Shown: positions 7,900 through 64,000 of the stretch, in pieces
Layout of the letters: every line of letters begins with the position of its first letter
How positions within the stretch are numbered: the stretch's first letter is position 1
Origin: Lingula anatina
Taxonomy: Eukaryota > Animalia > Brachiopoda
DNA: 64,000 nucleotides
Direction of reading: 5' to 3'
Assembly: GCA_051362555.1 (NCBI GenBank)
Contig: CM120642.1
Location: 14,322,001-14,386,000, forward strand
Translations under genes and position numbers: made by a program
Notes under the pieces: model-generated
What the model was told of the DNA's origin: nothing
What the model saw: only the letters and a program-made list of their open reading frames with translations
Database searches by the model: none

Positions 7900-8061
7900 C
7901 TGTCTGAGAGCCGTCTCCTGTTGCTTCTTGCTATAGTGTCCCTGGGTGCCACTTCCTGGCCCTGGCCTCCAGCACGTCCATAACTAACACTCTGGCCTGA
8001 GAGCTGAGACACTGGTCCTTCGCAGCCTGAGGTATTGTGTTGAATATCAGGTTGAGGGTAG
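7900..8061 (-). CDS. Isolated 162-nt exon encoding the C-terminal helices of a MIF4G-like domain; TAG at 7931-7933 (natural end or nonsense mutation)
   Basis: Strong splice sites ctttcatttcag|...CAG|GTGAGT. The phase-1 frame reads TLNLIFNTIPQAAKDQCLSSQARVLVMDVLEARARKWHPGTL*, resembling the eIF4G MIF4G end (YFNQM...[22 protein letters not shown]). A second frame is fully open but has no recognisable motif. Confidence 0.6.
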
Positions 8062-10395: not shown

Positions 10396-10500
10396 TCAGA
10401 GGGGGCACCACCTGTAACTCTCTGTCGTCTGTCCATGGTCTGGCCACCATATCCCACGATGTCCCCGCTTTGTTTTCTTGCTGCATATCTCTAACAGGTA
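10385..10500 (-). mobile_element. Possible decayed RTE-type LINE 3' tip, tail-to-tail with the Rex/Babar copy
   Basis: The minus strand reads RDMQQENKAGTSWDMVAR then, in a shifted frame, MDRRQ. This loosely matches the RTE C-terminal W..(A)xDRxxW motif and is followed by a (TAA)-like tail. Confidence 0.3.
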
Positions 10501-11334
10501 TTGAACAGGTAGTCTAAATATCGCTTACATTAAATTCCATGCTGTAAAAATGAAAACTCCACGCCAGTCAGAAAAATATGCTTCGTATAAGCTGTGTAAT
10601 TTCATGTTAAGTTTATTTCATCATTTTGGCTTTCTACTTTTTTACTTCTCACCCCTAACCCTGAACCCGTTGAGGCAGATTGTTTAACTCCATCTTCAGC
10701 TAAAGGTATACTTTTTCATTTTAGTTATTAGAGACTCAGTCTGATAATATCCTCTTCATTATATGGTTGTATGCTTTTTGTTAATCTTTTTTTTAAATAA
10801 AAGACCATTTGGGTAATTGTAGTAGATGTAGATTATCAAAACGTGACGGTTTTTCCCCCTATAAGTTGACCTTTTACCATAAAACCTCCGTGTACGTAGG
10901 TCATGTTGCCCTGAGCAAAAAACCTTCTTCTGGGGTTCGCCCCCTCCTTTCCGTCTACAGACCTGTAAATTTGGGTAATTAAACAACATAAAAGATCACA
11001 GGAGCTGAGGGAGGTAACTCCCTACCTCCCCCCCCCCCACACACACAAGAAAGTTTTTTTAAACCATGTCAGTGGTTTAAACAGTGAAAAGGAACTATGG
11101 AGCCCTGCATGCCATCTTCTTTCAAAGAAATATAGGAAGAAGTTAAAATATTTAAGCAAATGAAAAAAGTAACTGTAAAACATTAAATCAGACCAAGTAC
11201 ATAATCCTTTCGTTATCCTTTCGCCTTTGAAAATTAATGCTACCAAAAAACTGGACAACTCCACATAAATATTAATAGCAAAAATGGATTATCACTTTAT
11301 CTTTATTTCTGTGAAACAAGAAATAAAATGAAAG

Positions 11335-14300
11335 AGTTAGGATAGTAAATTTCATTTTTGGGGGTGGTGGGATGGGTAAATTGATAAAATCTAATCTTGT
11401 TTTTCTTTTCTTTTTACAGGATGAAGAAGATGATGAGGGACCCCACCCAGACATGGACTTCACCCTTGGATCCAAGTTAAGGTTAGTAAATTTCATTTTT
11501 TTTGGGGGTGGTGGGGTTGGTAAATTGAAGAAATCTAATCTTGTTTTTCATTTCTTTTTACAGGACGAAGAAGATGAAGTGAGACCCCAACTGGACATGG
11601 ACTTCACCCTTGGATCCAAACTAAGGTAAGTAAATTTCTTTTTTTTGGGGTGGCGGGAATGGTAAATTGAAGAAATCTAATCCTGTTTTTCGTTTCTTGT
11701 TACAGGACAAAGAAGATGATGAGCGCCCCCAACCGGACATGGACTTCACCCTTGGATTCAAGCTAAGGTTAGTAAATTTCATTTTTTGGGGGTGGGGGGA
11801 TTAGTAAATTGAAGAAATCTAATCCTGTTTTTCGTTTCTTTTTACAGGACAAAGAAGATGATGAGCGCCCCTTCCCAGACATGGACTTCACACTTGGATC
11901 CAAGCTAAGGTTAGTAAATTTTATTTTATCGGGGTGGTGGGATGGGTAAATTAAATAAATCTTATCTTGTTTTTCATTTCTTTTTATAGGACGAAGAAGA
12001 TGAAGTGAGACCCCAACCGGACATGGACTTCACCCGTGGATCCAAGCTAAGGTAAGTAAATTTCATTTTTTTGGGGTGGCGGGAATGGTAAATTGAAGAA
12101 ATCTAATCCTGTTTTTCTTTTCTTTTTACAGGATGAAGAAGATGATGAGGGACCCCACCCAGACATGGACTTCACTCTTGGATCAAAGTTAAGGTTAGTA
12201 AATTTCGATTTTTTGGGGTGGTGGGATGGGTAAATTGAAGAAATCTAATCTTGTTTTTCTTTTCTTTTTATAGGACGAAGAAGATGATGAGGGACCCCAC
12301 CCAGACATGGACTTCACACTTGGATCCAAGCTAAGGTTAGTAAATTTCATTTTTTTAGGGTGGTGGGATGGGTAAATTAAATAAATCTAATCTTCTTTTT
12401 CATTTCTTTTTACAGGACGAAGAAGATGAAGTGAGACCCCAACCGGACATGGACTTCACCCTTGGATCCAAGCTAAGGTAAGTAAATTTCATTTTTTGGG
12501 GGTGGCGGGAATGGTAAATTGAAGAAATCTAATCCTGTTTTTCGTTTCTTTTTACAGGACAAAGAAGATGATGAGCGCCCCCAACCGGACATGGACTTCA
12601 CCCTTGGATTCAAGCTAAGGTTAGTAAATTTTATTTTTTCGGGGTGGTGGGATGGGTAAATTGAAGAAATCTAATCTTGTTTTTCGTTTCTTTTTATAGG
12701 ATGAAGAAGATGATGAGGGACCCCACCCGGACATGGACTTCACACTTGGATCCAAGCTAAGGTTAGTAAATTTCATTTTTTTGGGGTGGTGGGATGGGTA
12801 AATTGAAGAAATCTAATCTTGTTTTTCTTTTCTTTTTACCGGACGAAGAAGATGAAGTGAGACCCCAACCGGACATGGACTTCACCCTTGGATCCAAGCT
12901 AAGGTAAGTAAATTTAATTTTTTTGGGGTGGCGGGAATGGTAAATTGAAGTAATCTAATCCTGTTTTTCGTTTCTTTTTACAGGACAAAGAACATGATGA
13001 GTGCCCCCAACCGGACATGGACTTCACCCTTGGATTCAAGCTAAGGTTAGTAAATTTCATTTTTTTGGGGTGGTGGGATTGGTAAATTGAAGAAATCTAA
13101 TCTTGTTTTTCTTTTCTTTTTACAGGATGAAGAAGATGATGAGGGACCCCACCCAGACATGGACTTCACTCTTGGATCAAAGTTAAGGTTAGTAAATTTC
13201 ATTTTTTTGGGGTGGTGGGATGGGTAAATTGAAGAAATCTAATCTTGTTTTTCATTTCTTTTTACAGGACGAAGAAGATGAAGTGAGACCCCAACCGGAC
13301 ATGGACTTCACCCTTGGATCCAAGCTAAGGTAAGTAAATTTCATTTTTTTGGGGTGGCGGGAATGGTAAATTGAAGAAATCTAATCTTGTTTTTCGTTTC
13401 TTTTTATAGGACGAAGAAGATGATGAGGGACCCCACCCGGACATGGATTTCACACTTGGATCCAAGCTAGGGTTAGTAAATTTCATTTTTTTGGGGTGGT
13501 GGGATGGGTAAATTGAAGAAATCTAATCTTGTTTTTCTTTTCTTTTTACAGGATGAAGAAGATGATGAGGGACCCCACCCAGACATGGACTTCACACTTG
13601 GATCCAAGCTAAGGTTAGTAAATTTCATTTTTTTAGGGTGGTGGGATGGGTAAATTAAATAAATCTAATCTTCTTTTTCATTTCTTTTTACAGGACGAAG
13701 AAGATGAAGTGAGACCCCAACCGGACATGGACTTCACCCTTGGATCCAAGCTAAGGTAAGTAAATTTCATTTTTTGGGGGTGGCGGGAATGGTAAATTGA
13801 AGAAATCTAATCCTGTTTTTCGTTTCTTTTTACAGGACAAAGAAGATGATGAGCGCCCCCAACCGGACATGGACTTCACCCTTGGATTCAAGCTAAGGTT
13901 AGTAAATTTCATTTTTTGGGGGTGGGGGGATTAGTAAATTGAAGAAATCTAATCCTGTTTGTCGTTTCTTTTTACAGGACAAAGAAGATGATGAGCGCCC
14001 CTACCCAGACATGGACTTCACACTTGGATCCAAGCTAGGGTTAGTAAATTTCATTTCTTTGGGGTGGTGGGGTTGGTAAATTGAAGAAATCTAATCTTGT
14101 ATTTCATTTCTTTTTACAGGACGAAGAAGATGAAGTGAGACCCAAACCGGACATGGACTTCACACTTGGATCCAAGCTAAGGTTAGTAAATTTCATTTTT
14201 TTGGGGTGGTGGGATGGGTAAATTGAAGAAATCTAATCTTGTTTTTCTTTTCTTTTTACCGGACGAAGAAGATGAAGTGAGACCCCAACCGGACATGGAC

Positions 14301-17300
14301 TTCACCCTTGGATCCAAGCTAAGGTAAGTAAATTTAATTTTTTTGGGGTGGCGGGAATGGTAAATTGAAGAAATCTAATCCTGTTTTTTGTTTCTTTTTA
14401 CAGGACAAAGAACATGATGAGTGCCCCCAACCGGACATGGACTTCACCCTTGGATTCAAGCTAAGGTTAGTAAATTTCATTTTTTTGGGGTGGTGGGATT
14501 GGTAAATTGAAGAAATCTAATCTTGTTTTTCTTTTCTTTTTACAGGATGAAGAAGATGATGAGGGACCCCACCCAGACATGGACTTCACTCTTGGATCAA
14601 AGTTAAGGTTAGTAAATTTCATTTTTTTGGGGTGGTGGGATGGGTAAATTGAAGAAATCTAATCTTGTTTTTCATTTCTTTTTACAGGACGAAGAAGATG
14701 AAGTGAGACCCCAACCGGACATGGACTTCACCCTTGGATCCAAGCTAAGGTAAGTAAATTTCATTTTTTTGGGGTGGCGGGAATGGTAAATTGAAGAAAT
14801 CTAATCTTGTTTTTCGTTTCTTTTTATAGGACGAAGAAGATGATGAGGGACCCCACCCGGACATGGATTTCACACTTGGATCCAAGCTAGGGTTAGTAAA
14901 TTTCATTTTTTTGGGGTGGTGGGATGGGTAAATTGAAGAAATCTAATCTTGTTTTTCTTTTCTTTTTACAGGATGAAGAAGATGATGAGGGACCCCACCC
15001 AGACATGGACTTCACCCTTGGATCCAAGTTAAGGTTAGTAAATTTCATTTTTTTTTGGGGTGGTGGGGATGGTAAATTGAAGAAATCTAATTTTGATTTT
15101 CATTTCTTTTTACAGGACGAAGAAGATGAAGTGAGACCCCAACCGGACATGGACTTCACCCTTGGATCCAAACTAAGGTAAGTAAATTTCTTTTTTTTGG
15201 GGTGGCGGGAATGGTAAATTGAAGAAATCTAATCCTGTTTTTCGTTTCTTGTTACAGGACAAAGAAGATGATGAGCGCCCCCAACCTGACATGGACTTCA
15301 CCCTTGGATTCAAGCTAAGGTTAGTAAATTTCATTTTTTTGGGGTGGTGGGATGGGTAAATTGAAGAAATCTAATCTTGTTTTTCTTTTATTTTTACAGG
15401 ATGAAGAAGATGATGAGGGACCCCACCCGGACATGGACTTCACACTTGTATCCAAGCTAAGGTTAGTAAATTTCATTTTTTTGGGGTGGTGGGATGGGTA
15501 AATTGAAGAAATCTAATCTTGTTTTTCTTTTATTTTTACAGGATGAAGAAGATGATGAGGGACCCCACCCAGACATGGACTTCACTCTTGGATCAAAGTT
15601 AAGGTTAGTAAATTTCATTTTTTTGGGGTGGTGGGATGGGTAAATTGAAGAAATCTAATCTTGTTTTTCATTTCTTTTTACAGGACGAAGAAGATGAAGT
15701 GAGACCCCAACCGGACATGGACTTCACCCTTGGATCCAAGCTAAGGTAAGTAAATTTCATTTTTTTGGGGTGGCGGGAATGGTAAATTGAAGAAATCTAA
15801 TCTTGTTTTTCGTTTCTTTTTATAGGACGAAGAAGATGATGAGGGACCCCACCCGGACATGGATTTCACACTTGGATCCAAGCTAGGGTTAGTAAATTTC
15901 ATTTTTTTGGGGTGGTGGGATGGGTAAATTGAAGAAATCTAATCTTGTTTTTCTTTTCTTTTTACAGGATGAAGAAGATGATGAGGGACCCCACCCAGAC
16001 ATGGACTTCACCCTTGGATCCAAGTTAAGGTTAGTAAATTTCATTTTTTTTTGGGGTGGTGGGGTTGGTAAATTGAAGAAATCTAATTTTGATTTTCATT
16101 TCTTTTTACAGGAAGAAGAAGATGAAGTGAGACCCCAACCGGACATGGACTTCACCCTTGGATCCAAGCTAAGGTAAGTAAATTTCATTTTTTTGGGGTG
16201 GCGGGAATGGTAAATTGAAGAAATCTAATCCTGTTTTTCGTTTCTTTTTACAGGACAAAGAAGATGATGAGCGCCCCCAACCGGACATGGACTTCACCCT
16301 TGGATTCAAGCTAAGGTTAGTAAATTTCATTTTTTGGGGGTGGGGGGATTAGTAAATTGAAGAAATCTTATCCTGTTTGTCGTTTCTTTTTACAGGACAA
16401 AGAAGATGATGAGCGCCCCTACCCAGACATGGACTTCACACTTGGATCCAAGCTAAGGTTAGTAAATTTTATTTTTTCGGGGTGGTGGGATGGGTAAATT
16501 GAAGAAATCTAATCTTGTTTTTTGTTTCTTTTTATAGGACGAAGAAGATGATAAGGGACCCCACCCGGACATGGACTTCACACTTGGATCCAAGCTAAGG
16601 TTAGTAAATTTCATTTTTTTGGGGTGGTGGGATGGGTAAATTGAAGAAATCTAATCTTGTTTTTCTTTTCTTTTTACCGGACGAAGAAGATGAAGTGAGA
16701 CCCCAACCGGACATGGACTTCACCCTTGGATCCAAGCTAAGGTAAGTAAATTTCATTTTTTTGGGGTGGCGGGAATGGTAAATTGAAGAAATCTAATCCT
16801 GTTTTTCGTTTCTTTTTACAGGACAAAGAAGATGATGAGCGCCCCCAACCGGACATGGACTTCACCCTTGGATTCAAGCTAAGGTTAGTAAATTTCATTT
16901 TTTGGGGGTGGGGGGATTAGTAAATTGAAGAAATCTAATCCTGTTTTTCGTTTCTTTTTACAGGACAAAGAAGATGATGAGCGCCCCTTCCCAGACATGG
17001 ACTTCACACTTGGATCCAAGCTAAGGTTAGTAAATTTTATTTTATCGGGGTGGTGGGATGGGTAAATTAAATAAATCTAATCTTGTTTTTCATTTCTTTT
17101 TACAGGACGAAGAAGATGAAGTGAGACCCCAACCGGACATGGACTTCACCCGTGGATCCAAGCTAAGGTAAGTAAATTTCATTTTTTTGGGGTGGCGGGA
17201 ATGGTAAATTGAAGAAATCTAATCCTGTTTTTCTTTTCTTTTTACAGGATGAAGAAGATGATGAGGGACCCCACCCAGACATGGACTTCACTCTTGGATC

Positions 17301-20300
17301 AAAGTTAAGGTTAGTAAATTTCATTTTTTTGGGGTGGTGGGATGGGTAAATTGAAGAAATCTAATCTTGTTTTTCTTTTCTTTTTATAGGACGAAGAAGA
17401 TGATGAGGGACCCCACCCAGACATGGACTTCACACTTGGATCCAAGCTAAGGTTAGTAAATTTCATTTTTTTAGGGTGGTGGGATGGGTAAATTAAATAA
17501 ATCTAATCTTCTTTTTCATTTCTTTTTACAGGACGAAGAAGATGAAGTGAGACCCCAACCGGACATGGACTTCACCCTTGGATCCAAGCTAAGGTAAGTA
17601 AATTTCATTTTTTGGGGGTGGCGGGAATGGTAAATTGAAGAAATCTAATCCTGTTTTTCGTTTCTTTTTACAGGACAAAGAAGATGATGAGCGCCCCCAA
17701 CCGGACATGGACTTCACCCTTGGATTCAAGCTAAGGTTAGTAAATTTCATTTTTTGGGGGTGGGGGGATTAGTAAATTGAAGAAATCTAATCCTGTTTGT
17801 CGTTTCTTTTTACAGGACAAAGAAGATGATGAGCGCCCCTACCCAGACATGGACTTCACACTTGGATCCAAGCTAAGGTTAGTAAATTTAATTTTTTCGG
17901 GGTGGTGGGATGGGTAAATTGAAGAAATCTAATCTTGTTTTTCGTTTCTTTTTATAGGATGAAGAAGATGATGAGGGACCCCACCCGGACATGGACTTCA
18001 CACTTGGATCCAAGCTAAGGTTAGTAAATTTCATTTTTTTGATGGTGGCGGGATGGGTAAATTGAAGAAATCTAATCTTGTTTTTCTTTTCTTTTTACCG
18101 GATGAAGAAGATGAAGTGAGACCCCAACCGGACATGGACTTCACCCTTGGATCCAAGCTAAGGTAAGTAAATTTCATTTTTTGGGGGTGGCGGGAATGGT
18201 AAATTGAAGAAATCTAATCCTGTTTTTCGTTTCTTTTTACAGGACAAAGAACATGATGAGTGCCCCCAACCGGACATGGACTTCACCCTTGGATTCAAGC
18301 TAAGGTTAGTAAATTTCATTTTTTTGGGGTGGTGGGATTGGTAAATTGAAGAAATCTAATCTTGTTTTTCTTTTCTTTTTACAGGATGAAGAAGATGATG
18401 AGGGACCCCACCCAGACATGGACTTCACCCTTGGATCCAAGTTAAGGTTAGTAAATTTCATTTTTTTGGGGTGGTGGGATGGGTAAATTGAAGAAATCTA
18501 ATCTTGTTTTTCTTTTCTTTTTACCGGATGAAGAAGATGAAGTGAGACCCCAACCGGACATGGACTTCACCCTTGGATCCAAGCTAAGGTAAGTAAATTT
18601 CATTTTTTTGGGGTGGCGGGAATGGTAAATTGAAGAAATCTAATCTTGTTTTTCGTTTCTTTTTATAGGACGAAGAAGATGATGAGGGACCCCACCCGGA
18701 CATGGATTTCACACTTGGATCCAAGCTAGGGTTAGTAAATTTCATTTTTTTGGGGTGGTGGGATGGGTAAATTGAAGAAATCTAATCTTGTTTTTCTTTT
18801 CTTTTTACAGGATGAAGAAGATGATGAGGGACCCCACCCAGACATGGACTTCACCCTTGGATCCAAGTTAAGGTTAGTAAATTTCATTTTTTTTTGGGGT
18901 GGTGGGGTTGGTAAATTGAAGAAATCTAATTTTGATTTTCATTTCTTTTTACAGGACGAAGAAGATGAAGTGAGACCCCAACCGGACATGGACTTCACCC
19001 TTGGATCCAAACTAAGGTAAGTAAATTTCTTTTTTTTGGGGTGGCGGGAATGGTAAATTGAAGAAATTTAATCCTGTTTTTCGTTTCTTGTTACAGGACA
19101 AAGAAGATGATGAGCGCCCCCAACCTGACATGGACTTCACCCTTGGATTCAAGCTAAGGTTAGTAAATTTCATTTTTTTGGGGTGGTGGGATGGGTAAAT
19201 TGAAGAAATCTAATCTTGTTTTTCTTTTATTTTTACAGGATGAAGAAGATGATGAGGGACCCCACCCGGACATGGACTTCACACTTGGATCCAAGCTAAG
19301 GTTAGTAAATTTCATTTTTTTGGGGTGGTGGGATGGGTAAATTGAAGAAATCTAATCTTGTTTTTCTTTTATTTTTACAGGATGAAGAAGATGATGAGGG
19401 ACCCCACCCAGACATGGACTTCACTCTTGGATCCAAGTTAAGGTTAGTAAATTTCATTTTTTTGGGGTGGTGGGGTTGATAAATTGAAGAAATCTAATCT
19501 TGTTTTTCATTTCTTTTTACAGGACGAAGAAGATGAAGTGAGACCCCAACCGGACATGGACTTCACCCTTGGATCCAAGCTAAGGTAAGTAAATTTCATT
19601 TTTTTGGGGTGGCGGGAATGGTAAATTGAAGAAATCTAATCCTGTTTTTCGTTTCTTTTTACAGGACAAAGAAGATGATGAGCGCCCCCAACCGGACATG
19701 GACTTCACCCTTGGATTCAAGCTAAGGTTAGTAAATTTCATTTTTTGGGGGTGGGGGGATTAGTAAATTGAAGAAATCTAATCCTGTTTGTCGTTTCTTT
19801 TTACAGGACAAAGAAGATGATGAGCGCCCCTACCCAGACATGGACTTCACACTTGGTTCCAAGCTAAGGTTAGTAAATTTTATTTTTTCGGGGTGGTGGG
19901 ATGGGTAAATTGAAGAAATCTAATCTTGTTTTTTGTTTCTTTTTATAGGACGAAGAAGATGATGAGGGACCCCACCCGGAGATGGACTTCACACTTGGAT
20001 CCAAGCTAAGGTTAGTAAATTTCATTTTTTTGGGGTGGTGGGATGGGTAAATTGAAGAAATCTAATCTTGTTTTTCTTTTCTTTTTACCGGACGAAGAAG
20101 ATGAAGTGAGACCCCAACCGGACATGGACTTCACCCTTGGATCCAAGCTAAGGTAAGTAAATTTCATTTTTTTGGGGTGGCGGGAATGGTAAATTGAAGA
20201 AATCTAATCTTGTTTTTCATTTCTTTTTACAGGATGAAGAAGATGAAGTGAGACCCCAACCGGACATGGACTTCACCCTTGGATCCAAGCTAAGGTAAGT

Positions 20301-23300
20301 AAATTTCATTTTTTTGGGGTGGCGGGAATGGTAAATTGAAGAAATCTAATCCTGTTTTTCGTTTCTTTTTACAGGACAAAGAAGATGATGAGCGCCCCCA
20401 ACCGGACATGGACTTCACCCTTGGATTCAAGCTAAGGTTAGTAAATTTCATTTTTTGGGGGTGGGGGGATTAGTAAATTGAAGAAATCTAATCCTGTTTT
20501 TCGTTTCTTTTTACAGGACAAAGAAGATGATGAGCGCCCCTTCCCAGACATGGACTTCACACTTGGATGCAAGCTAAGGTTAGTAAATTTTATTTTATCG
20601 GGGTGGTGGGATGGGTAAATTGAATAAATCTAATCTTGTTTTTCATTTCTTTTTACAGGACGAAGAAGATGAAGTGAGACCCCAACCGGACATGGACTTC
20701 ACCCGTGGATCCAAGCTAAGGTAAGTAAATTTCATTTTTTTGGGGTGGCGGGAATGGTAAATTGAAGAAATCTAATCCTGTTTTTCTTTTCTTTTTACAG
20801 GATGAAGAAGATGATGAGGGACCCCACCCAGACATGGACTTCACTCTTGGATCAAAGTTAAGGTTAGTAAATTTCATTTTTTTTGGGGTGGTGGGATGGG
20901 TAAATTAAATAAATCTAATCTTCTTTTTCATTTCTTTTTACAGGACGAAGAAGATGAAGTGAGACCCCAACCGGACATGGACTTCACCCTTGGATCCAAG
21001 CTAAGGTAAGTAAATTTCATTTTTTGGGGGTGGCGGGAATGGTAAATTGAAGAAATCTAATCCTGTTTTTCGTTTCTTTTTACAGGACAAAGAAGATGAT
21101 GAGCGCCCCCAACCGGACATGGACTTCACCCTTGGATTCAAGCTAAGGTTAGTAAATTTCATTTTTTGGGGGTGGGGGGATTAGTAAATTGAAGAAATCT
21201 AATCCTGTTTGTCGTTTCTTTTTACAGGACAAAGAAGATGATGAGCGCCCCTACCCAGACATGGACTTCACACTTGGATCCAAGCTAAGGTTAGTAAATT
21301 TTATTTTTTTCGGGGTGGTGGGATGGGTAAATTGAAGAAATCTAATCTTGTTTTTCGTTTCTTTTTATAGGACGAAGAAGATGATGAGGAACCCCACCCG
21401 GACATGGACTTCACACTTGGATCCAAGCTAAGGTTAGTAAATTTCATTTTTTTGGGGTGGTGGGATGGGTAAATTGAAGAAATCTAATCTTGTTTTTCTT
21501 TTCTTTTTACCGGACGAAGAAGATGAAGTGAGACCCCAACCGGACATGGACTTCACCCTTGGATCCAAGCTAAGGTAAGTAAATTTCATTTTTTTGGGGT
21601 GGCGGGAATGGTAAATTGAAGAAATCTAATCCTGTTTTTCATTTCTTTTTACAGGACAAAGAACATGATGAGTGCCCCCAACCGGACATGGACTTCACCC
21701 TTGGATTCAAGCTAAGGTTAGTAAATTTCATTTTTTTGGGGTGGTGGGATTGGTAAATTGAAGAAATCTAATCTTGTTTTTCTTTTCTTTTTACAGGATG
21801 AAGAAGATGATGAGGGACCCCACCCAGACATGGACTTCACTCTTGGATCAAAGTTAAGGTTAGTAAATTTCATTTTTTTGGGGTGGTGGGATGGGTAAAT
21901 TGAAGAAATCTAATCTTGTTTTTCATTTCTTTTTACAGGACGAAGAAGATGAAGTGAGACCCCAACCGGACATGGACTTCACCCTTGGATCCAAGCTAAG
22001 GTAAGTAAATTTCATTTTTTTGGGGTGGTGGGAATGGTAAATTGAAGAAATCTAATCCTGTTTTTCGTTTCTTTTTACAGGACAAAGAAGATGTTGAGCG
22101 CCCCCAATCGGACATAGACTTCACCCTTGGATTCAAGCTAAGGTTAGTAAATTTCATTTTTTGGGGGTGGGGGGATTAGTAAATTGAAGAAATCTAATCC
22201 TGTTTTTCGTTTCTTTTTACAGGACAAAGAAGATGATGAGCGCCCCTACCCAGACATGGACTTCACACTTGGATCCAAGCTAAGGTTAGTAAATTTTATT
22301 TTTTCGGGGTGGTGGGATGGGTAAATTGAAGAAATCTAATCTTGTTTTTCGTTTCTTTTTATAGGACGAAGAAGATGATGAGGGACCCCACCCGGACATG
22401 GACTTCACATTTGGATCCAAGCTAAGGTTAGTAAATTTCATTTTTTTGGGGTGGTGGGATGGGTAAATTGAAGAAATCTAATGTTGTTTTTCTTTTCTTT
22501 TTACCGGACGAAGAAGATGAAGTGAGACCCCAACCGGACATGGACTTCACCCTTGGATCCAAGCTAAGGTAAGTAAATTTCATTTTTTGGGGTGGCGGGA
22601 ATGGTAAATTGAAGAAATCTAATCCTGTTTTTCGTTTCTTTTTACAGGACAAAGTACATGATGAGTGCCCCCAACCGGACATGGACTTCACCCTTGGATT
22701 CAAGCTAAGGTTAGTAAATTTCATTTTTTTGGGGTGGTGGGATTGGTAAATTGAAGAAATCTAATCTTGTTTTTCTTTTCTTTTTACAGGATGAAGAAGA
22801 TGATGAGGGACCCCACCCAGACATGGACTTCACTCTTGGATCAAAGTTAAGGTTAGTAAATTTCATTTTTTTGGGGTGGTGGGATGGGTAAATTGAAGAA
22901 ATCTAATCTTGTTTTTCATTTCTTTTTACAGGACGAAGAAGATGAAGTGAGACCCCAACCGGACATGGACTTCACCCTTGGATCCAAGCTAAGGTAAGTA
23001 AATTTCATTTTTTTGGGGTGGTGGGAATGGTAAATTGAAGAAATCTAATCCTGTTTTTCGTTTCTTTTTACAGGACAAAGAAGATGTTGAGCGCCCCCAA
23101 TCGGACATAGACTTCACCCTTGGATTCAAGCTAAGGTTAGTAAATTTCATTTTTTGGGGGTGGGGGGATTAGTAAATTGAAGAAATCTAATCCTGTTTTT
23201 CGTTTCTTTTTACAGGATGAAGAAGATGATGAGCTCTCCTACCCAGACATGGACTTCACACTTGGATCCAAGCTAAGGTTAGTAAATTTCATTTTTTTGG

Positions 23301-53300: not shown

Positions 53301-56300
53301 AGAAATCTAATCTTGTTTTTCGTTTCTTTTTATAGGACGAAGAAGATGATGAGGGACCCCACCCGGACATGGACTTCACACTTGGATCCAAGCTAAGGTT
53401 AGTAAATTTCATTTTTTTTGGTGATGGGATGGGTAAATTGAAGAAATCTAATCTTGTTTTTCTTTTATTTTTACAGGATGAAGAAGATGAGGGACCCAAC
53501 CCAGATATGGACTTTACTCTTGGATCCAAGTTAAGGTTTGTAAATTTCATTTTTTTAGGGGTGGTGGGGTTGGTAAATTGAAGAAATCTAATCTTGTTTT
53601 TCATTTCTTTTTACCGGACGAAGAAGATGAAGTGAGACCCCAACCGGACATGGACTTCACCCTTGGATCCAAGCTAAGGTAAGTAAATTTCATTTTTTTG
53701 GGGTGGCGGGAATGGTAAATTGAAGAAATCTAATCCTGTTTTTCGTTTCTTTTTACAGGACAAAGAAGATGATGAGCGCCCCCAACCGGACATGGACTTC
53801 ACCCTTGGATTCAAGCTAAGGTTAGTCAATTTCATTTTTTGGGGGTGGGGGGATTAGTAAATTGAAGAAATCTAATCCTGTTTTTCGTTTCTTTTTACAG
53901 GACAAAGAAGATGATGAACGCCCCTACCCAGGCATGGACTTCACACTTGGATCCAAGCTAAGGTTAGTAAATTTCATTTTTTTGAGGTGGTGGGATGGGT
54001 AAATTGAAGAAATCTAATCTTGTTTTTCGTTTCTTTTTATAGGACGAAGAAGATGATGAGGGACCCCACCCGAACATGGACTTCACACTTGGATCCAAGC
54101 TAAGGTTAGTAAATTTTATTTTATCGGGGTGGTGGGATGGGTAAATTAAATAAATCTAATCTTGTTTTTCATTTCTTTTTACAGGACGAAGAAGATGAAG
54201 TGAGACCCCAACCGGACATGGACTTCACCCGTGGATCCAAGCTATGGTAAGTAAATTTCATTTTTTAGGGGTGGCGGGAATGGTAAATTGAAGAAATCTA
54301 ATCCTGTTTTTCTTTTCTTTTTACAGGATGAAGAAGATGATGAGGGACCCCACCCAGACATGGACTTCACTTTTGGATCAAAGTTAAGGTTAGTAAATTT
54401 CATTTTTTTAGGGTGGTGGGATGGGTAAATTAAATAAATCTAATCTTCTTTTTCATTTCTTTTTACAGGACGAAGAAGATGAAGTGAGACCCCAACCAGT
54501 GGACTTCACCCTTGGATCCAAGCTAAGGTAAGTAAATTTCATTTTTTTGGGGTGGCGGGAATGGTAAATTGAACAAATCTAATCCTGTTTTTCGTTTCTT
54601 TTTACAGGACAAAGAAGATGATGAGCGCCCCTTCCCAGACATGGACTTCACACTTGGATCCAAGCTAAGGTTAGTAAATTTCATTTTTTTGGGGTGGTGG
54701 GATGGGTAAATTAAATAAATCTAATCTTGTTTTTCATTTCTTTTTACAGGACGAAGAAGATGAAGTGAGACCCCAACCGGACATGGACTTCACCCGTGGA
54801 TCCAAGCTAAGGTAAGTAAATTTCATTTTTTTGGGGTGGCGGGAATGGTAAATTGAAGAAATCTAATCCTGTTTTTCGTTTCTTTTTACAGGACAAAGAA
54901 GATGATGAGCGCCCCCAACCGGACATGGACTTCACCCTTGGATTCAAGCTGAGGTTAGTAAATTTCATTTTTTAGGGGTGGGGGGATTAGTAAATTGAAG
55001 AAATCTAATCCTGTTTTTCGTTTCTTTTTACAGGACAAAGAAGATGATGAGCGCCCCTACCCAGACATGGACTTCACACTTGGATCCAAGCTAAGGTTAG
55101 TAAATTTTATTTTTTCGGGGTGGTGGGATGGGTAAATTGAAGAAATCTAATCTTGTTTTTCGTTTCTTTTTATAGGACGAAGAAGATGATGAGGGACCCC
55201 ACCCGGACATGGACTTCACACTTGGATCTAAGCTAAGGTTAGTAAATTTCATTTTTTTGGGGTGATGGGATGGGTAAATTGAAGAAATCTAATCTTGTTT
55301 TTCTTTTATTTTTACAGGATGAAGAAGATGATGAGGGACCCCACTCGGACATGGACTTCACACTTGGATCCAAGCTAAGGTTAGTAAATTTCATTTTTTT
55401 GGGGTGGTGGGATGGGTAAATTGAAGAAATCTAATCTTGTTTTTCTTTTATTTTTACAGGATGAAGAAGATGATGAGGGACCCCACCCAGACATGGACTT
55501 CACTCTTGGATCCAAGTTAAGGTTAGTAAATTTCATTTTTTTGGGGTGATGGGGTTGGTAAATTGAAGAAATCTAATCTTGTTTTTCTTTTATTTTTACA
55601 GGATGAAGAAGATGATGAGGGACCCCACCCAGACATGGACTTCACTCTTGGATCCAAGTTAAGGTTAGTAAATTTCATTTTTTTGGGGTGATGGGGTTGG
55701 TAAATTGAAGAAATCTAATCTTGTTTTTCGTTTCTTTTTATAGGACGAAGAAGATGATGAGGGACCCCACTCGGACATGGACTTCACACTTGGATCCAAG
55801 CTAAGGTTAGTAAATTTCATTTTTTTGGGGTGGTGGGATGGGTAAATTGAAGAAATCTAATCTTGTTTTTCTTTTATTTTTACAGGATGAAGAAGATGAT
55901 GAGGGACCCCACCCAGACATGGACTTCACCCTTGGATTCAAGCTAAGGTTAGTAAATTTCATTTTTTGGGGTGGGGAGATTAGTAAATTGAAGAAATCTA
56001 ATCCTGTTTTTCGTTTCTTTTTACAGGACAAAGAAGATGATGAGCGCCCCCAACCGGACATGGACTTCACCCTTGGATTCAAGCTAAGGTTAGTAAATTT
56101 CATTTTTTGGGGGTGGGGGGATTAGTAAATTGAAGAAATCTAATCCTGTTTTTCGTTTCTTTTTACAGGACAAAGAAGATGATGAACGCCCCTACCCAGA
56201 CATGGACTTCACACTTGGATCCAAGCTAAGGTTAGTAAATTTCATTTTTTTGGGGTGGTGGGATGGGTAAATTGAAGAAATCTAATCTTGTTTTTCGTTT

Positions 56301-59300
56301 CTTTTTATAGGACGAAGAAGATGATGAGGGACCCCACCCGAACATGGACTTCACACTTGGATCCAAGCTAAGGTTAGTAAATTTTATTTTATCGGGGTGG
56401 TGGGATGGGTAAATTAAATAAATCTAATCTTGTTTTTCATTTCTTTTTACAGGACGAAGAAGATGAAGTGAGACCCCAACCGGACATGGACTTCACCCGT
56501 GGATCCAAGCTATGGTAAGTAAATTTCATTTTTTAGGGGTGGCGGGAATGGTAAATTGAAGAAATCTAATCCTGTTTTTCTTTTCTTTTTACAGGATGAA
56601 GAAGATGATGAGGGACCCCACCCAGACATGGACTTCACTTTTGGATCAAAGTTAAGGTTAGTAAATTTCATTTTTTTGGGGTGGTGGGATGGGTAAATTG
56701 AAGAAATCTAATCTTGTTTTTCTTTTCTTTTTATAGGACGAAGAAGATGATGAGGGACCCCACCCAGACATGGACTTCACACTTGGATCCAAGCTAAGGT
56801 TAGTAAATTTCATTTTTTGGGGTGGGGAGATTAGTAAATTGAAGAAATCTAATCCTGTTTTTCGTTTCTTTTTACAGGACAAAGAAGATGATGAGCGCCC
56901 CCAACCGGACATGGACTTCACCCTTGGATTCAAGCTAAGGTTAGTAAATTTCATTTTTTGGGGGTGGGGGGATTAGTAAATTGAAGAAATCTAATCCTGT
57001 TTTTCGTTTCTTTTTATAGGACAAAGAAGATGATGAGCGCCCCTACCCAGACATGGACTTCACACTTGGATCCAAGCTAAGGTTAGTAAATTTTATTTTT
57101 TCGGGATGGTGGGATGGGTAAATTGAAGAAATCTAATCTTGTTTTTCTTTTCTTTTTACAGGATGAAGAAGATGATAAGGGACCCCACCCAGACATGGAC
57201 TTCACTCTTGGATCCAAGTTAAGGTTAGTAAATTTCATTTTTTTGGGGTGGTGGGGTTGGTAAATTGAATAAATCTAATCTTGTTTTTCATTTCTTTTTA
57301 CAGGATGAAGAAGATGAAGTGAGACCCCAACCGGACATGGACTTCACCCTTGGATCCAAGCTAAGGTAAGTAAATTTCATTTTTTTGGGGTGGCGGGAAT
57401 GGTAAATTGAAGAAATCTAATCCTGTTTTTCGTTTCTTTTTACAGGACAAAGAAGATGATGAGCGCCCCTTCCCAGACATGGACTTCACACTTGGATCCA
57501 AGCTAAGGTTAGTAAATTTCATTTTTTTGGGGTGGTGGGATGGGTAAATTAAATAAATCTAATCTTGTTTTTCATTTCTTTTTACAGGACGAAGAAGATG
57601 AAGTGAGACCCCAACCGGACATGGACTTCACCCGTGGATCCAAGCTAAGGTAAGTAAATTTCATTTTTTTGGGGTGGCGGGAATGGTAAATTGAAGAAAT
57701 CTAATCCTGTTTTTCGTTTCTTTTTACAGGACAAAGAAGATGATGAGCGCCCCCAACCGGACATGGACTTCACCCTTGGATTCAAGCTAAGGTTAGTAAA
57801 TTTCATTTTTTAGGGGTGGGGGGATTAGTAAATTGAAGAAATCTAATCCTGTTTTTCGTTTCTTTTTACAGGACAAAGAAGATGATGAGCGCCCCTACCC
57901 TGACATGGACTTCACACTTGGATCCAAGCTAAGGTTAGTAAATTTCATTTTTTTGGGGTGGTGGGATGGGTAAATTGAAGAAATCTAATCTTGTTTTTCT
58001 TTTCTTTTTACAGGATGAAGCAGATGATGAGGGACCCCACCCAGACATGGACTTCACACTTGGATCCAAGTTAAGGTTAGTAAATTTCATTTTTTTGGGG
58101 TGATGGGGTTGGTAAATTGAAGAAATCTAATCTTGTTTTTCATTTCTTTTTACAGGACGAAGAAGATGAAGTGAGACCCCAACCGGACATGGACTTCACC
58201 CTTGGATCCAAGCTAAGGTAAGTAAATTTCATTTTTTTGGGGTGGCGGGAATGGTAAATTGAAGAAATCTAATCCTGTTTTTCGTTTCTTTTTACAGGAC
58301 AAAGAAGATGATGAGCGCCCCCAACCGGACATGGACTTCACCCTTGGATTCAAGCTAAGGTTAGTAAATTTCATTTTTTGGGGGTGGGGGGATTAGTAAA
58401 TTGAAGAAATCTAATCCTGTTTTTCGTTTCTTTTTACAGGACAAAGAAGATGATGAACGCCCCTACCCAGACATGGACTTCACACTTGGATCCAAGCTAA
58501 GGTTAGTAAATTTCATTTTTTTGGGGTGGTGGGATGGGTAAATTGAAGAAATCTAATCTTGTTTTTCGTTTCTTTTTATAGGACGAAGAAGATGATGAGG
58601 GACCCCACCCGAACATGGACTTCACACTTGGATCCAAGCTAAGGTTAGTAAATTTTATTTTATCGGGGTGGTGGGATGGGTAAATTAAATAAATCTAATC
58701 TTGTTTTTCATTTCTTTTTACAGGACGAAGAAGATGAAGTGAGACCCCAACCGGACATGGACTTCACCCGTGGATCCAAGCTATGGTAAGTAAATTTCAT
58801 TTTTTAGGGGTGGCGGGAATGGTAAATTGAAGAAATCTAATCCTGTTTTTCTTTTCTTTTTACAGGATGAAGAAGATGATGAGGGACCCCACCCAGACAT
58901 GGACTTCACTTTTGGATCAAAGTTAAGGTTAGTAAATTTCATTTTTTTGGGGTGGTGGGATGGGTAAATTGAAGAAATCTAATCTTGTTTTTCTTTTCTT
59001 TTTATAGGACAAAGAAGATGATGAGGGACCCCACCCAGACATGGACTTCACACTTGGATCCAAGCTAAGGTTAGTAAATTTCATTTTTTTAGGGTGGTGG
59101 GATGGGTAAATTAAATAAATCTAATCTTCTTTTTCATTTCTTTTTACAGGACGAAGAAGATGAAGTGAGACCCCAACCAGTGGACTTCACCCTTGGATCC
59201 AAGCTAAGGTAAGTAAATTTTATTTTTTTGGGGTGGCGGGAATGGTAAATTGAAGAAATCTAATCCTGTTTTTCGTTTCTTTTTACAGGACAAAGAAGAT

Positions 59301-62300
59301 GATGAGCGCCCCCAACCAGACATGGACTTCACCCTTGGATTCAAGCTAAGGTTAGTAAATTTCATTTTTTGGGGTGGGGAGATTAGTAAATTGAAGAAAT
59401 CTAATCCTGTTTTTCGTTTCTTTTTACAGGACAAAGAAGATGATGAGCGCCCCCAACCGGACATGGACTTCACCCTTGGATTCAAGCTAAGGTTAGTAAA
59501 TTTCATTTTTTGGGGGTGGGGGGATTAGTAAATTGAAGAAATCTAATCCTGTTTTTCGTTTCTTTTTACAGGACAAAGAAGATGATGAGCGCCCCTACCC
59601 AGACATGGACTTCACACTTGGATCCAAGCTAAGGTTAGTAAATTTTATTTTTTCGGGATGGTGGGATGGGTAAATTGAAGAAATCTAATCTTGTTTTTCT
59701 TTTCTTTTTACAGGATGAAGAAGATGATAAGGGACCCCACCCAGACATGGACTTCACTCTTGGATCCAAGTTAAGGTTAGTAAATTTCATTTTTTGGGGG
59801 TGGTGGGGTTGGTAAATTGAATAAATCTAATCTTGTTTTTCATTTCTTTTTACAGGATGAAGAAGATGAAGTGAGACCCCAACCGGACATGGACTTCACC
59901 CTTGGATCCAAGCTAAGGTAAGTAAATTTCATTTTTTTGGGGTGGCGGGAATGGTAAATTGAAGAAATCTAATCCTGTTTTTCGTTTCTTTTTACAGGAC
60001 AAAGAAGATGATGAGCGCCCCCAACCGGACATGGACTTCACCCTTGGATTCAAGCTAAGGTTAGTAAATTTCATTTTTTGGGGGTGGGGGGATTAGTAAA
60101 TTGAAGAAATCTAATCCTGTTTTTCGTTTCTTTTTACAGGACAAAGAAGATGATGAACGCCCCTACCCAGACATGGACTTCACACTTGGATCCAAGCTAA
60201 GGTTAGTAAATTTTATTTTATCGGGGTGGTGGGATGGGTAAATTAAATAAATCTAATCTTGTTTTTCATTTCTTTTTACAGGACGAAGAAGATGAAGTGA
60301 GACCCCAACCGGACATGGACTTCACCCGTGGATCCAAGCTATGGTAAGTAAATTTCATTTTTTAGGGGTGGCGGGAATGGTAAATTGAAGAAATCTAATC
60401 CTGTTTTTCTTTTCTTTTTACAGGATGAAGAAGATGATGAGGGACCCCACCCAGACATGGACTTCACTTTTGGATCAAAGTTAAGGTTAGTAAATTTCAT
60501 TTTTTTGGGGTGGTGGGATGGGTAAATTGAAGAAATCTAATCTTGTTTTTCTTTTCTTTTTATAGGACGAAGAAGATGATGAGGGACCCCACCCAGACAT
60601 GGACTTCACACTTGGATCCAAGCTAAGGTTAGTAAATTTCATTTTTTTAGGGTGGTGGGATGGGTAAATTAAATAAATCTAATCTTCTTTTTCATTTCTT
60701 TTTACAGGACGAAGAAGATGAAGTGAGACCCCAACCAGTGGACTTCACCCTTGGATCCAAGCTAAGGTAAGTAAATTTTATTTTTTTGGGGTGGCGGGAA
60801 TGGTAAATTGAAGAAATCTAATCCTGTTTTTCGTTTCTTTTTACAGGACAAAGAAGATGATGAGCGCCCCCAACCAGACATGGACTTCACCCTTGGATTC
60901 AAGCTAAGGTTAGTAAATTTCATTTTTTGGGGTGGGGAGATTAGTAAATTGAAGAAATCTAATCCTGTTTTTCGTTTCTTTTTACAGGACAAAGAAGATG
61001 ATGAGCGCCCCCAACCGGACATGGACTTCACCCTTGGATTCAAGCTAAGGTTAGTAAATTTCATTTTTTGGGGGTGGGGGGATTAGTAAATTGAAGAAAT
61101 CTAATCCTGTTTTTCGTTTCTTTTTATAGGACAAAGAAGATGATGAGCGCCCCTACCCAGACATGGACTTCACACTTGGATCCAAGCTAAGGTTAGTAAA
61201 TTTTATTTTTTCGGGATGGTGGGATGGGTAAATTGAAGAAATCTAATCTTGTTTTTCTTTTCTTTTTACAGGATGAAGAAGATGATAAGGGACCCCACCC
61301 AGACATGGACTTCACTCTTGGATCCAAGTTAAGGTTAGTAAATTTCATTTTTTTGGGGTGGTGGGGTTGGTAAATTGAATAAATCTAATCTTGTTTTTCA
61401 TTTCTTTTTACAGGATGAAGAAGATGAAGTGAGACCCCAACCGGACATGGGCTTCACCCTTGGATCCAAGCTAAGGTAAGTAAATTTCATTTTTTTGGGG
61501 TGGCGGGAATGGTAAATTGAAGAAATCTAATCCTGTTTTTCGTTTCTTTTTACAGGACAAAGAAGATGATGAGCGCCCCTTCCCAGACATGGACTTCACA
61601 CTTGGATCCAAGCTAAGGTTAGTAAATTTCATTTTTTTGGGGTGGTGGGATGGGTAAATTAAATAAATCTAATCTTGTTTTTCATTTCTTTTTACAGGAC
61701 GAAGAAGATGAAGTGAGACCCCAACCGGACATGGACTTCACCCGTGGATCCAAGCTAAGGTAAGTAAATTTCATTTTTTTGGGGTGGCGGGAATGGTAAA
61801 TTGAAGAAATCTAATCCTGTTTTTCGTTTCTTTTTACAGGACAAAGAAGATGATGAGCGCCCCCAACCGGACATGGACTTCACCCTTGGATTCAAGCTAA
61901 GGTTAGTAAATTTCATTTTTTAGGGGTGGGGGGATTAGTAAATTGAAGAAATCTAATCCTGTTTTTCGTTTCTTTTTACAGGACAAAGAAGATGATGAGC
62001 GCCCCTACCCAGACATGGACTTCACACTTGGATCCAAGCTAAGGTTAGTAAATTTCATTTTTTTGGGGTGGTGGGATGGGTAAATTGAAGAAATCTAATC
62101 TTGTTTTTCGTTTCTTTTTATAGGACGAAGAAGATGATGAGGGACCCCACCCGAACATGGACTTCACACTTGGATCCAAGCTAAGGTTAGTAAATTTTAT
62201 TTTATCGGGGTGGTGGGATGGGTAAATTAAATAAATCTAATCTTGTTTTTCATTTCTTTTTACAGGACGAAGAAGATGAAGTGAGACCCCAACCGGACAT

Positions 62301-64000
62301 GGACTTCACCCGTGGATCCAAGCTATGGTAAGTAAATTTCATTTTTTAGGGGTGGCGGGAATGGTAAATTGAAGAAATCTAATCCTGTTTTTCTTTTCTT
62401 TTTACAGGATGAAGAAGATGATGAGGGACCCCACCCAGACATGGACTTCACTTTTGGATCAAAGTTAAGGTTAGTAAATTTCATTTTTTTGGGGTGGTGG
62501 GATGGGTAAATTGAAGAAATCTAATCTTGTTTTTCTTTTCTTTTTATAGGACGAAGAAGATGATGAGGGACCCCACCCAGACATGGACTTCACACTTGGA
62601 TCCAAGCTAAGGTTAGTAAATTTCATTTTTTTAGGGTGGTGGGATGGGTAAATTAAATAAATCTAATCTTCTTTTTCATTTCTTTTTACAGGACGAAGAA
62701 GATGAAGTGAGACCCCAACCAGTGGACTTCACCCTTGGATCCAAGCTAAGGTAAGTAAATTTTATTTTTTTGGGGTGGCGGGAATGGTAAATTGAAGAAA
62801 TCTAATCCTGTTTTTCGTTTCTTTTTACAGGACAAAGAAGATGATGAGCGCCCCCAACCAGACATGGACTTCACCCTTGGATTCAAGCTAAGGTTAGTAA
62901 ATTTCATTTTTTGGGGTGGGGAGATTAGTAAATTGAAGAAATCTAATCCTGTTTTTCGTTTCTTTTTACAGGACAAAGAAGATGATGAGCGCCCCCAACC
63001 GGACATGGACTTCACCCTTGGATTCAAGCTAAGGTTAGTAAATTTCATTTTTTGGGGGTGGGGGGATTAGTAAATTGAAGAAATCTAATCCTGTTTTTCG
63101 TTTCTTTTTATAGGACAAAGAAGATGATGAGCGCCCCTACCCAGACATGGACTTCACACTTGGATCCAAGCTAAGGTTAGTAAATTTTATTTTTTCGGGA
63201 TGGTGGGATGGGTAAATTGAAGAAATCTAATCTTGTTTTTCTTTTCTTTTTACAGGATGAAGAAGATGATAAGGGACCCCACCCAGACATGGACTTCACT
63301 CTTGGATCCAAGTTAAGGTTAGTAAATTTCATTTTTTTGGGGTGGTGGGGTTGGTAAATTGAATAAATCTAATCTTGTTTTTCATTTCTTTTTACAGGAT
63401 GAAGAAGATGAAGTGAGACCCCAACCGGACATGGACTTCACCCTTGGATCCAAGCTAAGGTAAGTAAATTTCATTTTTTTGGGGTGGCGGGAATGGTAAA
63501 TTGAAGAAATCTAATCCTGTTTTTCGTTTCTTTTTACAGGACAAAGAAGATGATGAGCGCCCCTTCCCAGACATGGACTTCACACTTGGATCCAAGCTAA
63601 GGTTAGTAAATTTCATTTTTTTGGGGTGGTGGGATGGGTAAATTAAATAAATCTAATCTTGTTTTTCATTTCTTTTTACAGGACGAAGAAGATGAAGTGA
63701 GACCCCAACCGGACATGGACTTCACCCGTGGATCCAAGCTAAGGTAAGTAAATTTCATTTTTTTGGGGTGGCGGGAATGGTAAATTGAAGAAATCTAATC
63801 CTGTTTTTCGTTTCTTTTTACAGGACAAAGAAGATGATGAGCGCCCCCAACCGGACATGGACTTCACCCTTGGATTCAAGCTAAGGTTAGTAAATTTCAT
63901 TTTTTAGGGGTGGGGGGATTAGTAAATTGAAGAAATCTAATCCTGTTTTTCGTTTCTTTTTACAGGACAAAGAAGATGATGAGCGCCCCTACCCAGACAT
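11335..64000 (+). repeat. Tandem array of ~370 x ~142-bp units with higher-order structure; each unit is an ~80-nt intron-like part plus a 62-nt exon-like part; open at the right edge
   Basis: Consensus gttagtaaatttcatttttttggggtggtgggatgggtaaattgaagaaatctaatcttgtttttcttttctttttacag|GATGAAGAAGATGATGAGGGACCCCACCCAGACATGGACTTCACCCTTGGATCCAAGCTAAG, repeated head-to-tail with no interruption seen. Copy number is estimated as length/142. Most units carry a BamHI site. Confidence 0.98.
11420..11481 (+). other. First 62-nt exon-like cassette of the array (DEEDDEGPHPDMDFTLGSKL-R), representative of all copies
   Basis: Preceded by CTAAT, a polypyrimidine tract and ACAG (AG at 11418-11419); followed by GTTAGT at 11482. 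Only frame 0 is open. Confidence 0.7.

What the first reader, a model, noticed from the sequence alone, without database searches (positions are those of the whole stretch)
11420..64000. Coding-like substitution pattern: constant C-terminal half, variable N-terminal half
Seen: several common differences between monomer classes are synonymous in the open frame (codon 1 GAT/GAC, codon 10 CCA/CCG, codon 13 GAC/GAT, codon 15 ACC/ACA/ACT, codon 18 TCC/TCA, codon 20 CTA/TTA), so PDMDFTLG(S/F)KLR is nearly fixed. Amino-acid differences cluster in codons 2-9: DEEDDEGPH, DEEDEVRPQ, DKEDDERPQ, DKEDDERPY, DKEDDERPF, DKEHDECPQ, DEEDDELSY, DKEDVERPQ. Inference: the main monomer classes diverged under protein-level constraint, which a neutral satellite should not show.
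Basis: partly seen in the sequence, partly recalled or inferred. Interest (0 to 1): 0.78.

Follow-up and report, generated by a model that had tools for sequence, protein, structure and literature searches.

The report
Satellite of 370 spliceable exon-intron units
A 142-base unit made of one short intron and one 62-base exon is repeated at least 370 times in a row in what is likely a lamp-shell (Lingula) genome; related copies are spliced exon-to-exon in RNA, which breaks the reading frame, so the array is likely a non-coding satellite that grew out of a gene's exon, and its 'coding-like' mutation pattern is only borderline.

Summary
The listed codon differences are real, but the inference is weak. 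The array (11342 to beyond 64000) has 370 full units: an ~80-nt GT-AG intron plus a 62-nt exon. Common alleles are 10 synonymous to 12 non-synonymous (dN/dS 0.31); rare ones 9:33 (0.95). The excess is borderline: p 0.02-0.19 by threshold, 0.05-0.14 without CpG transitions, 0.09-0.47 without ambiguous codon 7. Non-synonymous sites are not clearly less variable than the intron. RNA reads join exon to exon at the predicted sites (17 reads); such RNA cannot encode the repeat. The expressed copies are diverged relatives with a neutral-looking allele mix (6:17), changes in the 'constant' half and a likely stop. No read showed a constant downstream exon. Best reading: a satellite amplified from a four-unit block of a gene's frame-breaking exon, with at most a faint relic of old constraint. 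A giant mutually exclusive cluster is unlikely but not excluded. The scan noted two analogous exon-intron arrays on other DNA.

The parts
11342..64000 (+). Tandem array of a 142-bp intron+exon unit; 370 full units plus a partial one; runs off the window's end
   Evidence: Tandem Repeats Finder period 142, 370.8 copies, 90% matches; unit alignment; loose four-unit order G-V-Q-Y; 243 of 370 units have an identical twin, mean pairwise difference 13.7 columns
11342..11419 (+). First intron-like copy: branch point, pyrimidine tract and CAG intact, but no GT donor (GATAGT) and no exon copy before it; left edge of the array
   Evidence: Sequence; unit u1
11420..11481 (+). First 62-nt exon copy (20 codons + AG; frame 0 DEEDDEGPHPDMDFTLGSKL); RNA of related copies lays on it with exon-to-exon joints
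11482..11563 (+). First complete intron: GTTAGT donor, G-runs, CTAAT branch point about 55 nt from the donor and 25 nt from the acceptor, CAG acceptor
   Evidence: GT in 369 of 369 junctions; AG in 347 of 370 acceptors; distances
11706..11767 (+). Example of the Q-class exon (DKEDDERPQPDMDFTLGFKL), the commonest single exon sequence (45 copies)
7900..8061 (-). Context: expressed minus-strand exon resembling the end of a MIF4G domain; its upstream exon is not in the window, so the array may lie antisense in that gene's intron
   Evidence: Depth 176 and a 416-read loose end in X1; loose end absent from the window; weak PDB match E 0.027

Best explanation
The array is 370 or more head-to-tail copies of an intron plus a frame-breaking 62-nt exon, and is likely a non-coding satellite that grew by unequal crossing-over from a late exon of a gene family, its 'coding-like' pattern being at most a faint inherited relic. 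Shown: the unit's anatomy; the 62-nt length; stops in both other frames; exon-to-exon splicing at the predicted sites in related expressed copies; neutral behaviour of recent mutations. Inferred: (1) the exon with the end of its upstream intron was first duplicated a few times (left edge at a near-match of the donor region); (2) about four or five copies diverged (classes G, V, Q, Y), perhaps while one still ended a protein; (3) the block was then amplified recently and irregularly; (4) where the family is transcribed, splicing joins neighbours, any open frame ends in the first or second repeat exon, and further exons form a spliced untranslated tail that would be a target of nonsense-mediated decay.
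For: Exon is 62 nt in 363 of 370 units and 59 nt in 7. Frame +1 has a stop in 369 of 370 exons and frame +2 in 370 of 370; the spliced product's longest open run is 56 aa. RNA joints go back 62 nt in 10 reads, 44+18 letters in 4 reads and 56+3 in 3 reads, on the + strand (strand calibrated on minus-strand genes). No loose end to a non-repeat exon was listed at the donor. Rare alleles fall at the same density on S, N and intron sites (0.73, 0.69, 0.66 per site). A dead acceptor (CCG) stands in 20 units and a TAG codon in 4. Read alleles are 6 S: 17 N, with G>T at codon 17 position 1 (likely TGA) in 18 of 83 reads. The loose G-V-Q-Y order and many identical twins point to block amplification. 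No real protein hit for the peptide.
Against: Synonymous sites among common alleles are about 2.5 times as variable as the intron (p 0.017) and dN/dS is 0.31. Both exon deletions are 3 nt. 336 of 370 units keep both splice sites and an open 62-nt frame 0. In X1, 20 reads enter the exon from sequence that did not align (X2: 5), and both low-agreement consensus ends are open in frame 0, so some family members may be translated into the first repeat exon. The reads come from diverged relatives, not demonstrably from this array, and number only 116. Protein searches were weak: the expressed MIF4G-like exon also found nothing. The right end of the array was not seen.
Confidence: 0.62

Rival explanations
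1. Selected spliced repeat RNA: the array is the body or untranslated tail of a long non-coding RNA whose repeated exons are kept for an RNA-level role, such as protein binding through the purine-rich GAAGAAGATGATGA run, or antisense regulation of a host gene. The pattern of variation would then reflect splicing signals, not codons.
For: Strand-specific spliced RNA with about 4-5-fold exon enrichment over intron in X1; reads on both strands in X2 and X3. The intron is less variable than synonymous sites among common alleles. The possible minus-strand host exon is expressed in X1, the run with most array reads.
Against: Expression is very low: 28-44 reads per run in X1-X3 and 5 in X8 with all copies collapsed on one unit. 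Reads do not match this array's classes (ACT at codon 15 in 80 of 84 reads against 44 of 370 units). Splice-signal positions are no more conserved than the rest of the intron (0.28 vs 0.36 per site). No RNA family or hairpin.
Confidence: 0.17
2. Giant mutually exclusive exon cluster: each mRNA takes one 62-nt exon (phase 0 to phase 2) between constant exons; joint inclusion is removed by frameshift and nonsense-mediated decay; the variable N-terminal half supplies diversity.
For: Frame 0 is open in 366 of 370 exons with canonical sites in most; dN/dS 0.31 among common alleles; unaligned upstream sequence joins the acceptor in 20 X1 reads. In human clusters 60% have non-3n exons and 22% of those show joining reads (PMC5740500, passages), so joining reads alone do not exclude this.
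Against: No constant downstream exon appeared at the donor, where a similar number of reads would be expected; donor-side joints went to another repeat exon. Donor-to-branch distance is about 55 nt, above the <50 nt steric limit used in PMC5740500. Only 95 distinct exons among 370, most encoding a handful of peptides. No upstream + strand exon joined to 11420 was listed within 11.4 kb (15 of 55 joints shown). Likely TGA in 18 of 83 reads.
Confidence: 0.08
3. No constraint ever: the unit comes from a non-coding exon, the open frame is luck, and the synonymous excess is noise on about 12 sites.
For: A 20-codon frame is often open by chance (inference: about 0.4 per frame). p is above 0.05 in most robust versions; minus frame 0 gives a similar 9 of 23; read alleles are neutral.
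Against: The open frame is exactly the phase-0 frame; both deletions are 3 nt; the diverged read variants and upstream loose ends stay open in that frame.
Confidence: 0.1
4. Coding repeat protein through a second donor 4 nt downstream (66-nt exon, 22 residues per repeat).
For: The +4 GT gives an open 66-nt exon in 265 units.
Against: It gives a stop in 73 units, spread through the array; RNA joints have period 62 or 59, and none with 66 was listed.
Confidence: 0.03

Closest known systems
Satellite DNA with higher-order repeats, derived from gene sequence (general class; recalled)
   Same: Over 52 kb of head-to-tail 142-bp monomers in a few classes with a loose four-unit order, many identical twins and neutral recent mutation.
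   Different: Each monomer is a complete spliceable intron plus exon, and relatives are spliced exon-to-exon in RNA.
[quoted passage not shown]
   Same: Clonal tandem exon-intron units ascribed to unequal crossing-over.
   Different: There exons are 90 bp with uniform phase-2 introns and encode protein repeats; here the exon is 62 nt, asymmetric, and consecutive splicing ends the frame.
Mutually exclusive exon clusters (human survey PMC5740500, passages seen; arthropod Dscam, recalled)
   Same: Tandem look-alike exons open in one frame, non-3n length, canonical splice sites.
   Different: 370 or more copies, mostly redundant; neighbours are joined in RNA; no constant downstream exon seen; branch distance above the steric limit.
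SNHG14 / SNORD116-SNORD115 repeated non-coding exon-intron arrays (PMC11608373, passages seen)
   Same: Tandem exon-intron units spliced consecutively into non-coding RNA.
   Different: There 29 and 48 introns each release a snoRNA; the 80-nt intron here has no C/D boxes, no Rfam match and no hairpin.

Membership tests
Satellite DNA / higher-order tandem repeat | Long head-to-tail array of a short monomer | tested here: met
   370.8 copies of 142 bp over 52.6 kb
Satellite DNA / higher-order tandem repeat | Monomer classes in a higher-order pattern with recent homogenisation | tested here: met
   Commonest neighbours GV 71, VQ 60, QY 52, YG 47, GG 44 of 369; 243 of 370 units with an identical twin; the order is irregular
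Satellite DNA / higher-order tandem repeat | No protein-coding constraint on current copies | tested here: inconclusive
   Rare alleles neutral (dN/dS 0.95), common alleles 0.31 with borderline p
Satellite DNA / higher-order tandem repeat | Heterochromatic or centromeric location | not testable with these tools
   No genome is held; the left flank is gene-rich
Protein-coding tandem exon array (Tetrahymena 90-bp type) | Exon length a multiple of three with symmetric intron phase | tested here: not met
   62 nt in 363 and 59 nt in 7 of 370; RNA joints have period 62 or 59
Protein-coding tandem exon array (Tetrahymena 90-bp type) | Long ORF after splicing | tested here: not met
   Longest open run 56 aa in 22,919 spliced bases
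Mutually exclusive exon cluster | Similar tandem exons open in one frame with canonical splice sites | tested here: met
   336 of 370 fully intact at 62 nt, 7 more at 59 nt
Mutually exclusive exon cluster | One exon per transcript between constant flanking exons | tested here: not met
   17 exon-to-exon reads; no non-repeat exon listed at the donor; upstream partner unresolved. The reads are few and come from relatives of this array
Mutually exclusive exon cluster | A mechanism of exclusion (steric, structure, or frameshift with decay) | tested here: inconclusive
   Steric limit not met, about 55 nt; frameshift with decay is possible by length; docking-selector structures were not searched
Small-RNA host array (SNORD116 type, mirtron) | Intron releases a snoRNA or a pre-miRNA hairpin | tested here: not met
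   0 of 370 introns have CTGA or TGATGA; fold z 0.0-0.4 for 4 of 4 introns folded; no Rfam match at gathering score in 10900-12500

The most novel reading that the evidence does not exclude
The array is the variable cassette of a Lingula gene: several hundred alternative 62-nt exons, one used per productive mRNA, exclusivity enforced only by frameshift and decay, with an acidic variable half and a constant half. That would be several times larger than the Dscam clusters I recall (up to about 48 exons) and maintained by satellite-like turnover.
Probability: 0.08. Interest if true: 0.9.

Novelty: new variant of a known kind. Interest (0 to 1): 0.4.

Why it matters
Under the best reading it is a clear case of a satellite being born from a gene: the monomer is a whole intron plus exon, still read by the spliceosome in relatives. 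It shows how tandem exon duplication can run away when the exon is not 3n and so escapes protein constraint. It also offers 370 natural variants of one short intron for studying splice-site decay. Under the novel reading it would be a very large alternative-exon system in a little-studied phylum.

Tried and rejected
No whole genome is held, so the array's right end and other family loci could not be read. Peptide searches found no real relative: PDB 0, Pfam 0, word-index search 0 of 2 candidates, and the full HMMER scan gave 1 hit, a repeated plant Fn3-like/glycosyl hydrolase protein matching 15 of 36 residues, half of them intron-derived, which I rejected as chance. The protein atlas did not answer. 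A metagenome scan for a degenerate junction pattern gave 0 matches. Run search: no RNA holder listed; nine raw-read runs were offered by species label, of which I laid 7 (X1-X5, X7, X8). Minus-strand reading of the unit was rejected: its AG is lost in the TTA class (63 units) and its GT in 58 units, with no pyrimidine tract. The +4 donor was rejected. Mirtron and snoRNA were rejected. A three-exon, three-frame repeat protein was rejected because every class has stops in frames +1 and +2. An upstream + strand exon matching the unaligned read ends was not found in the window (best 9 mismatches of 26). My early guess of a sea cucumber was wrong. Literature searches listed no paper describing this array; the Lingula genome paper PMC4595640 (passages) has no occurrence of 'satellite' or 'mutually exclusive' in its main text; its supplements were not read. 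PMC9013439 was searched for five terms with no passage returned. No structure or complex was predicted: there is no protein long enough to fold.
Full report
What is there. From 11342 to the end of the window lies one tandem array of period 142, 370.8 copies, 90% matches. I cut it into 370 full units and aligned them. Each unit is an intron of 78-83 nt (80 nt in 328 of 370) followed by an exon. The intron has a GTTAGT or GTAAGT donor (GT in 369 of 369 junctions), G-runs, a CTAAT branch motif about 55 nt from the donor and 25 nt from the acceptor, a pyrimidine tract, and CAG or TAG (AG in 347 of 370). The first copy lacks its GT and has no exon before it. There are 199 distinct units and 95 distinct exons; 243 units have an identical twin and the mean pairwise difference is 13.7 columns. 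Four exon classes (G 121, V 97, Q 83, Y 67, other 2) follow a loose G-V-Q-Y order. The organism is likely a Lingula brachiopod: a flanking serum amyloid A exon is 98% identical to a Lingula anatina protein.

The exon is 62 nt (363 units) or 59 nt (7 units), never a multiple of three. Frame 0 is open in 366 of 370 exons, but frame +1 has a stop in 369 and frame +2 in all 370. Splicing all exons together gives 22,919 bases whose longest open run is 56 residues. The 21-residue peptide can therefore be made from at most one exon per message. A second GT four bases downstream would give an in-frame 66-nt exon in 265 units but a stop in 73, and no RNA joint of that period was listed.

Testing the observation. 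Counting each distinct allele once, those in 10 or more copies are 10 synonymous and 12 non-synonymous; rarer ones are 9 and 33, dN/dS 0.31 and 0.95. Class consensus pairs give 0.24, 0.34, 0.36, 0.38, 0.51 and 1.23. Significance is borderline and depends on choices. With each change keeping its base type, p is 0.044 at threshold 10, 0.022 at 15, 0.057 at 30 and 0.19 at 5; dropping codon 7, whose path is ambiguous, gives 0.09-0.30. Dropping CpG transitions gives 0.054-0.14, and both together 0.20-0.47. Common versus rare gives Fisher p 0.04-0.28. Against the intron, synonymous sites are hot (0.81 vs 0.33 alleles per site, p 0.017) rather than non-synonymous sites cold (0.25, p 0.29; codons 10-20 0.12, p 0.057). 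The clustering in codons 2-9 is p 0.115 after allowing for the choice of window. Of five control frames, minus frame 0 gives a similar 9 of 23. Alleles in a converting array are not independent, so these p values are rough. In favour of some constraint: both exon deletions are 3 nt, and the open frame is the phase-0 one.

RNA evidence. I laid raw reads on stretches holding the first unit only. On 1-11500 flanking genes with CT..AC introns have first mates on + in X1, X4 and X5, which fixes the strand convention; the array bin in X1 has the opposite direction (6.43 vs 0), so its RNA is + strand. On 11200-11500 116 reads were laid (X1 44, X2 28, X3 39, X8 5). Depth in X1 rises from about 7-10 in the intron to about 40 on the exon. 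Joints that go back by one exon length show exon-to-exon splicing at the predicted sites: 62 nt in 10 reads (X1 6, X3 4), 44 plus 18 letters in 4, and 56 plus 3 in 3. Seven reads go back 142, unspliced. X2 and X3 also have flat opposite-strand coverage of 4-8. So the splice sites work, and neighbours are joined out of frame.

Limits of that evidence. The reads are not from this array's classes: codon 15 reads ACT in 80 of 84 reads but 44 of 370 units, and several letters seen in 18-34 reads occur in no unit (counts summed by me). They come from other loci or other haplotypes. Their 23 listed exon alleles are 6 synonymous and 17 non-synonymous, no excess over 25% (p 0.53), and 5: 11 in codons 10-20; 14 further rows were not shown by the tool. 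One allele, G>T at codon 17 position 1 in 18 of 83 reads, likely makes TGA (the next two letters were not listed as changed). Loose ends in X2 and X3 show still more diverged exons that keep D-x-D-x-T but change most neighbours. So the 'constant C-terminal half' is not a property of the family. At the acceptor, 20 X1 reads and 5 X2 reads come from sequence that did not align (median 74-76 nt, agreement 0.60-0.67, ending in AAG, open in frame 0). This may be a non-repeat upstream exon or strongly diverged repeat exons; it is not in the window. At the donor, the only loose end listed at the splice site was another repeat exon.

How it most likely works. Shown: anatomy, frame break, consecutive splicing in relatives, neutral recent mutation, spread of dead acceptors (20 CCG units) and stops (4 units). 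Inferred: a late exon of a gene family, entered in phase 0, was duplicated with the end of its upstream intron; four or five copies diverged, perhaps while one still finished a protein, leaving a faint synonymous excess; the block then expanded by unequal crossing-over into a satellite. In transcribed members an open frame would end at codon 17 or in the second repeat exon, and further exons form a spliced untranslated tail, likely prone to decay, which fits the low read counts. Unaligned-upstream reads in X1 (20) are at least as many as repeat-to-repeat reads (13), which suggests that expressed members carry few repeat exons, not hundreds (inference). I give this 0.62; a selected spliced repeat RNA 0.17; no constraint ever 0.10; a giant mutually exclusive cluster 0.08; a 66-nt coding repeat 0.03.

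Context. Upstream lie three minus-strand transcription units: a multi-exon gene ending near 2110 at its 5' end, the serum amyloid A gene, and an exon at 7900-8061 resembling a MIF4G end (weak) whose upstream exon is missing from the window. The array may thus sit antisense in that gene's intron, but X1, where that exon has depth 176, shows no minus-strand reads on the repeat, so this is open. No joint from the flank into 11420 was listed (15 of 55 joints shown).

Comparison with what is known. It is built like the Tetrahymena 90-bp exon arrays (PMC6564038, abstract and outline) but fails their defining 3n, symmetric-phase feature. It works like the repeated non-coding exons of SNHG14 (PMC11608373, passages) but hosts no small RNA. 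It resembles mutually exclusive clusters, 60% of which have non-3n exons and 22% of those joining reads in human (PMC5740500, passages), but no constant downstream exon was seen. Nine literature searches (listings only) showed no description of this array. Two earlier notes of this scan describe analogous exon-intron arrays in other genomes; I did not test them and they did not change my reading.

Verdict. Observation partly confirmed, interpretation partly supported at best. The substitution pattern is a borderline signal on about 12 synonymous sites. The real feature is a very large satellite whose monomer is a working intron plus a frame-breaking exon: a new variant of a known kind, interest 0.4.

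Noticed in passing
window 3632-5933, minus strand; codon at 4795-4797: Spliced, highly expressed serum amyloid A gene (Pfam SAA E 1.5e-14; 98% to Lingula anatina XP_013412765). The window has an in-frame TAA where the database protein has Gln and nearly all reads of three runs have the other letter (X4 1098 of 1098, X7 1097 of 1101, X5 309 of 309): a nonsense allele or an assembly error.
   Followed up: partly
window <164-2110, minus strand: Six-exon or longer gene confirmed by five RNA joints in all four runs. It looks like a COMM-domain protein (COMMD6-like); that name is recalled and no call confirmed it (one search found no such family on single exons).
   Followed up: partly
window 7146-8061, minus strand: MIF4G-like last coding exon, depth 176 in X1 but about 2 in X4 and X5; upstream exon (416-read loose end) absent from the window. 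Its 3' intron is listed with ends TC..AC, probably an allelic indel.
   Followed up: partly
window 9726-10390: Short, internally deleted LINE-like fragment with a reverse-transcriptase C-terminal look (recalled; Pfam gave no match).
   Followed up: partly
window about 7460-7690 and 5400-5490: Repeat elements with heavy RNA cover on both strands and opposite-strand joints, as expected of small inverted-repeat transposons.
   Followed up: no
window 11465-11476 and the same place in most units: A 12-bp palindrome CTTGGATCCAAG spans codons 16-19; it may shape which letters vary there. The Q class breaks it.
   Followed up: no
RNA reads laid on 11435-11437 (X2, X3): Loose ends show much more diverged exon relatives that keep D-x-D-x-T in frame 0 but change most other codons non-synonymously: the family is older and wider than this array.
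   Followed up: partly
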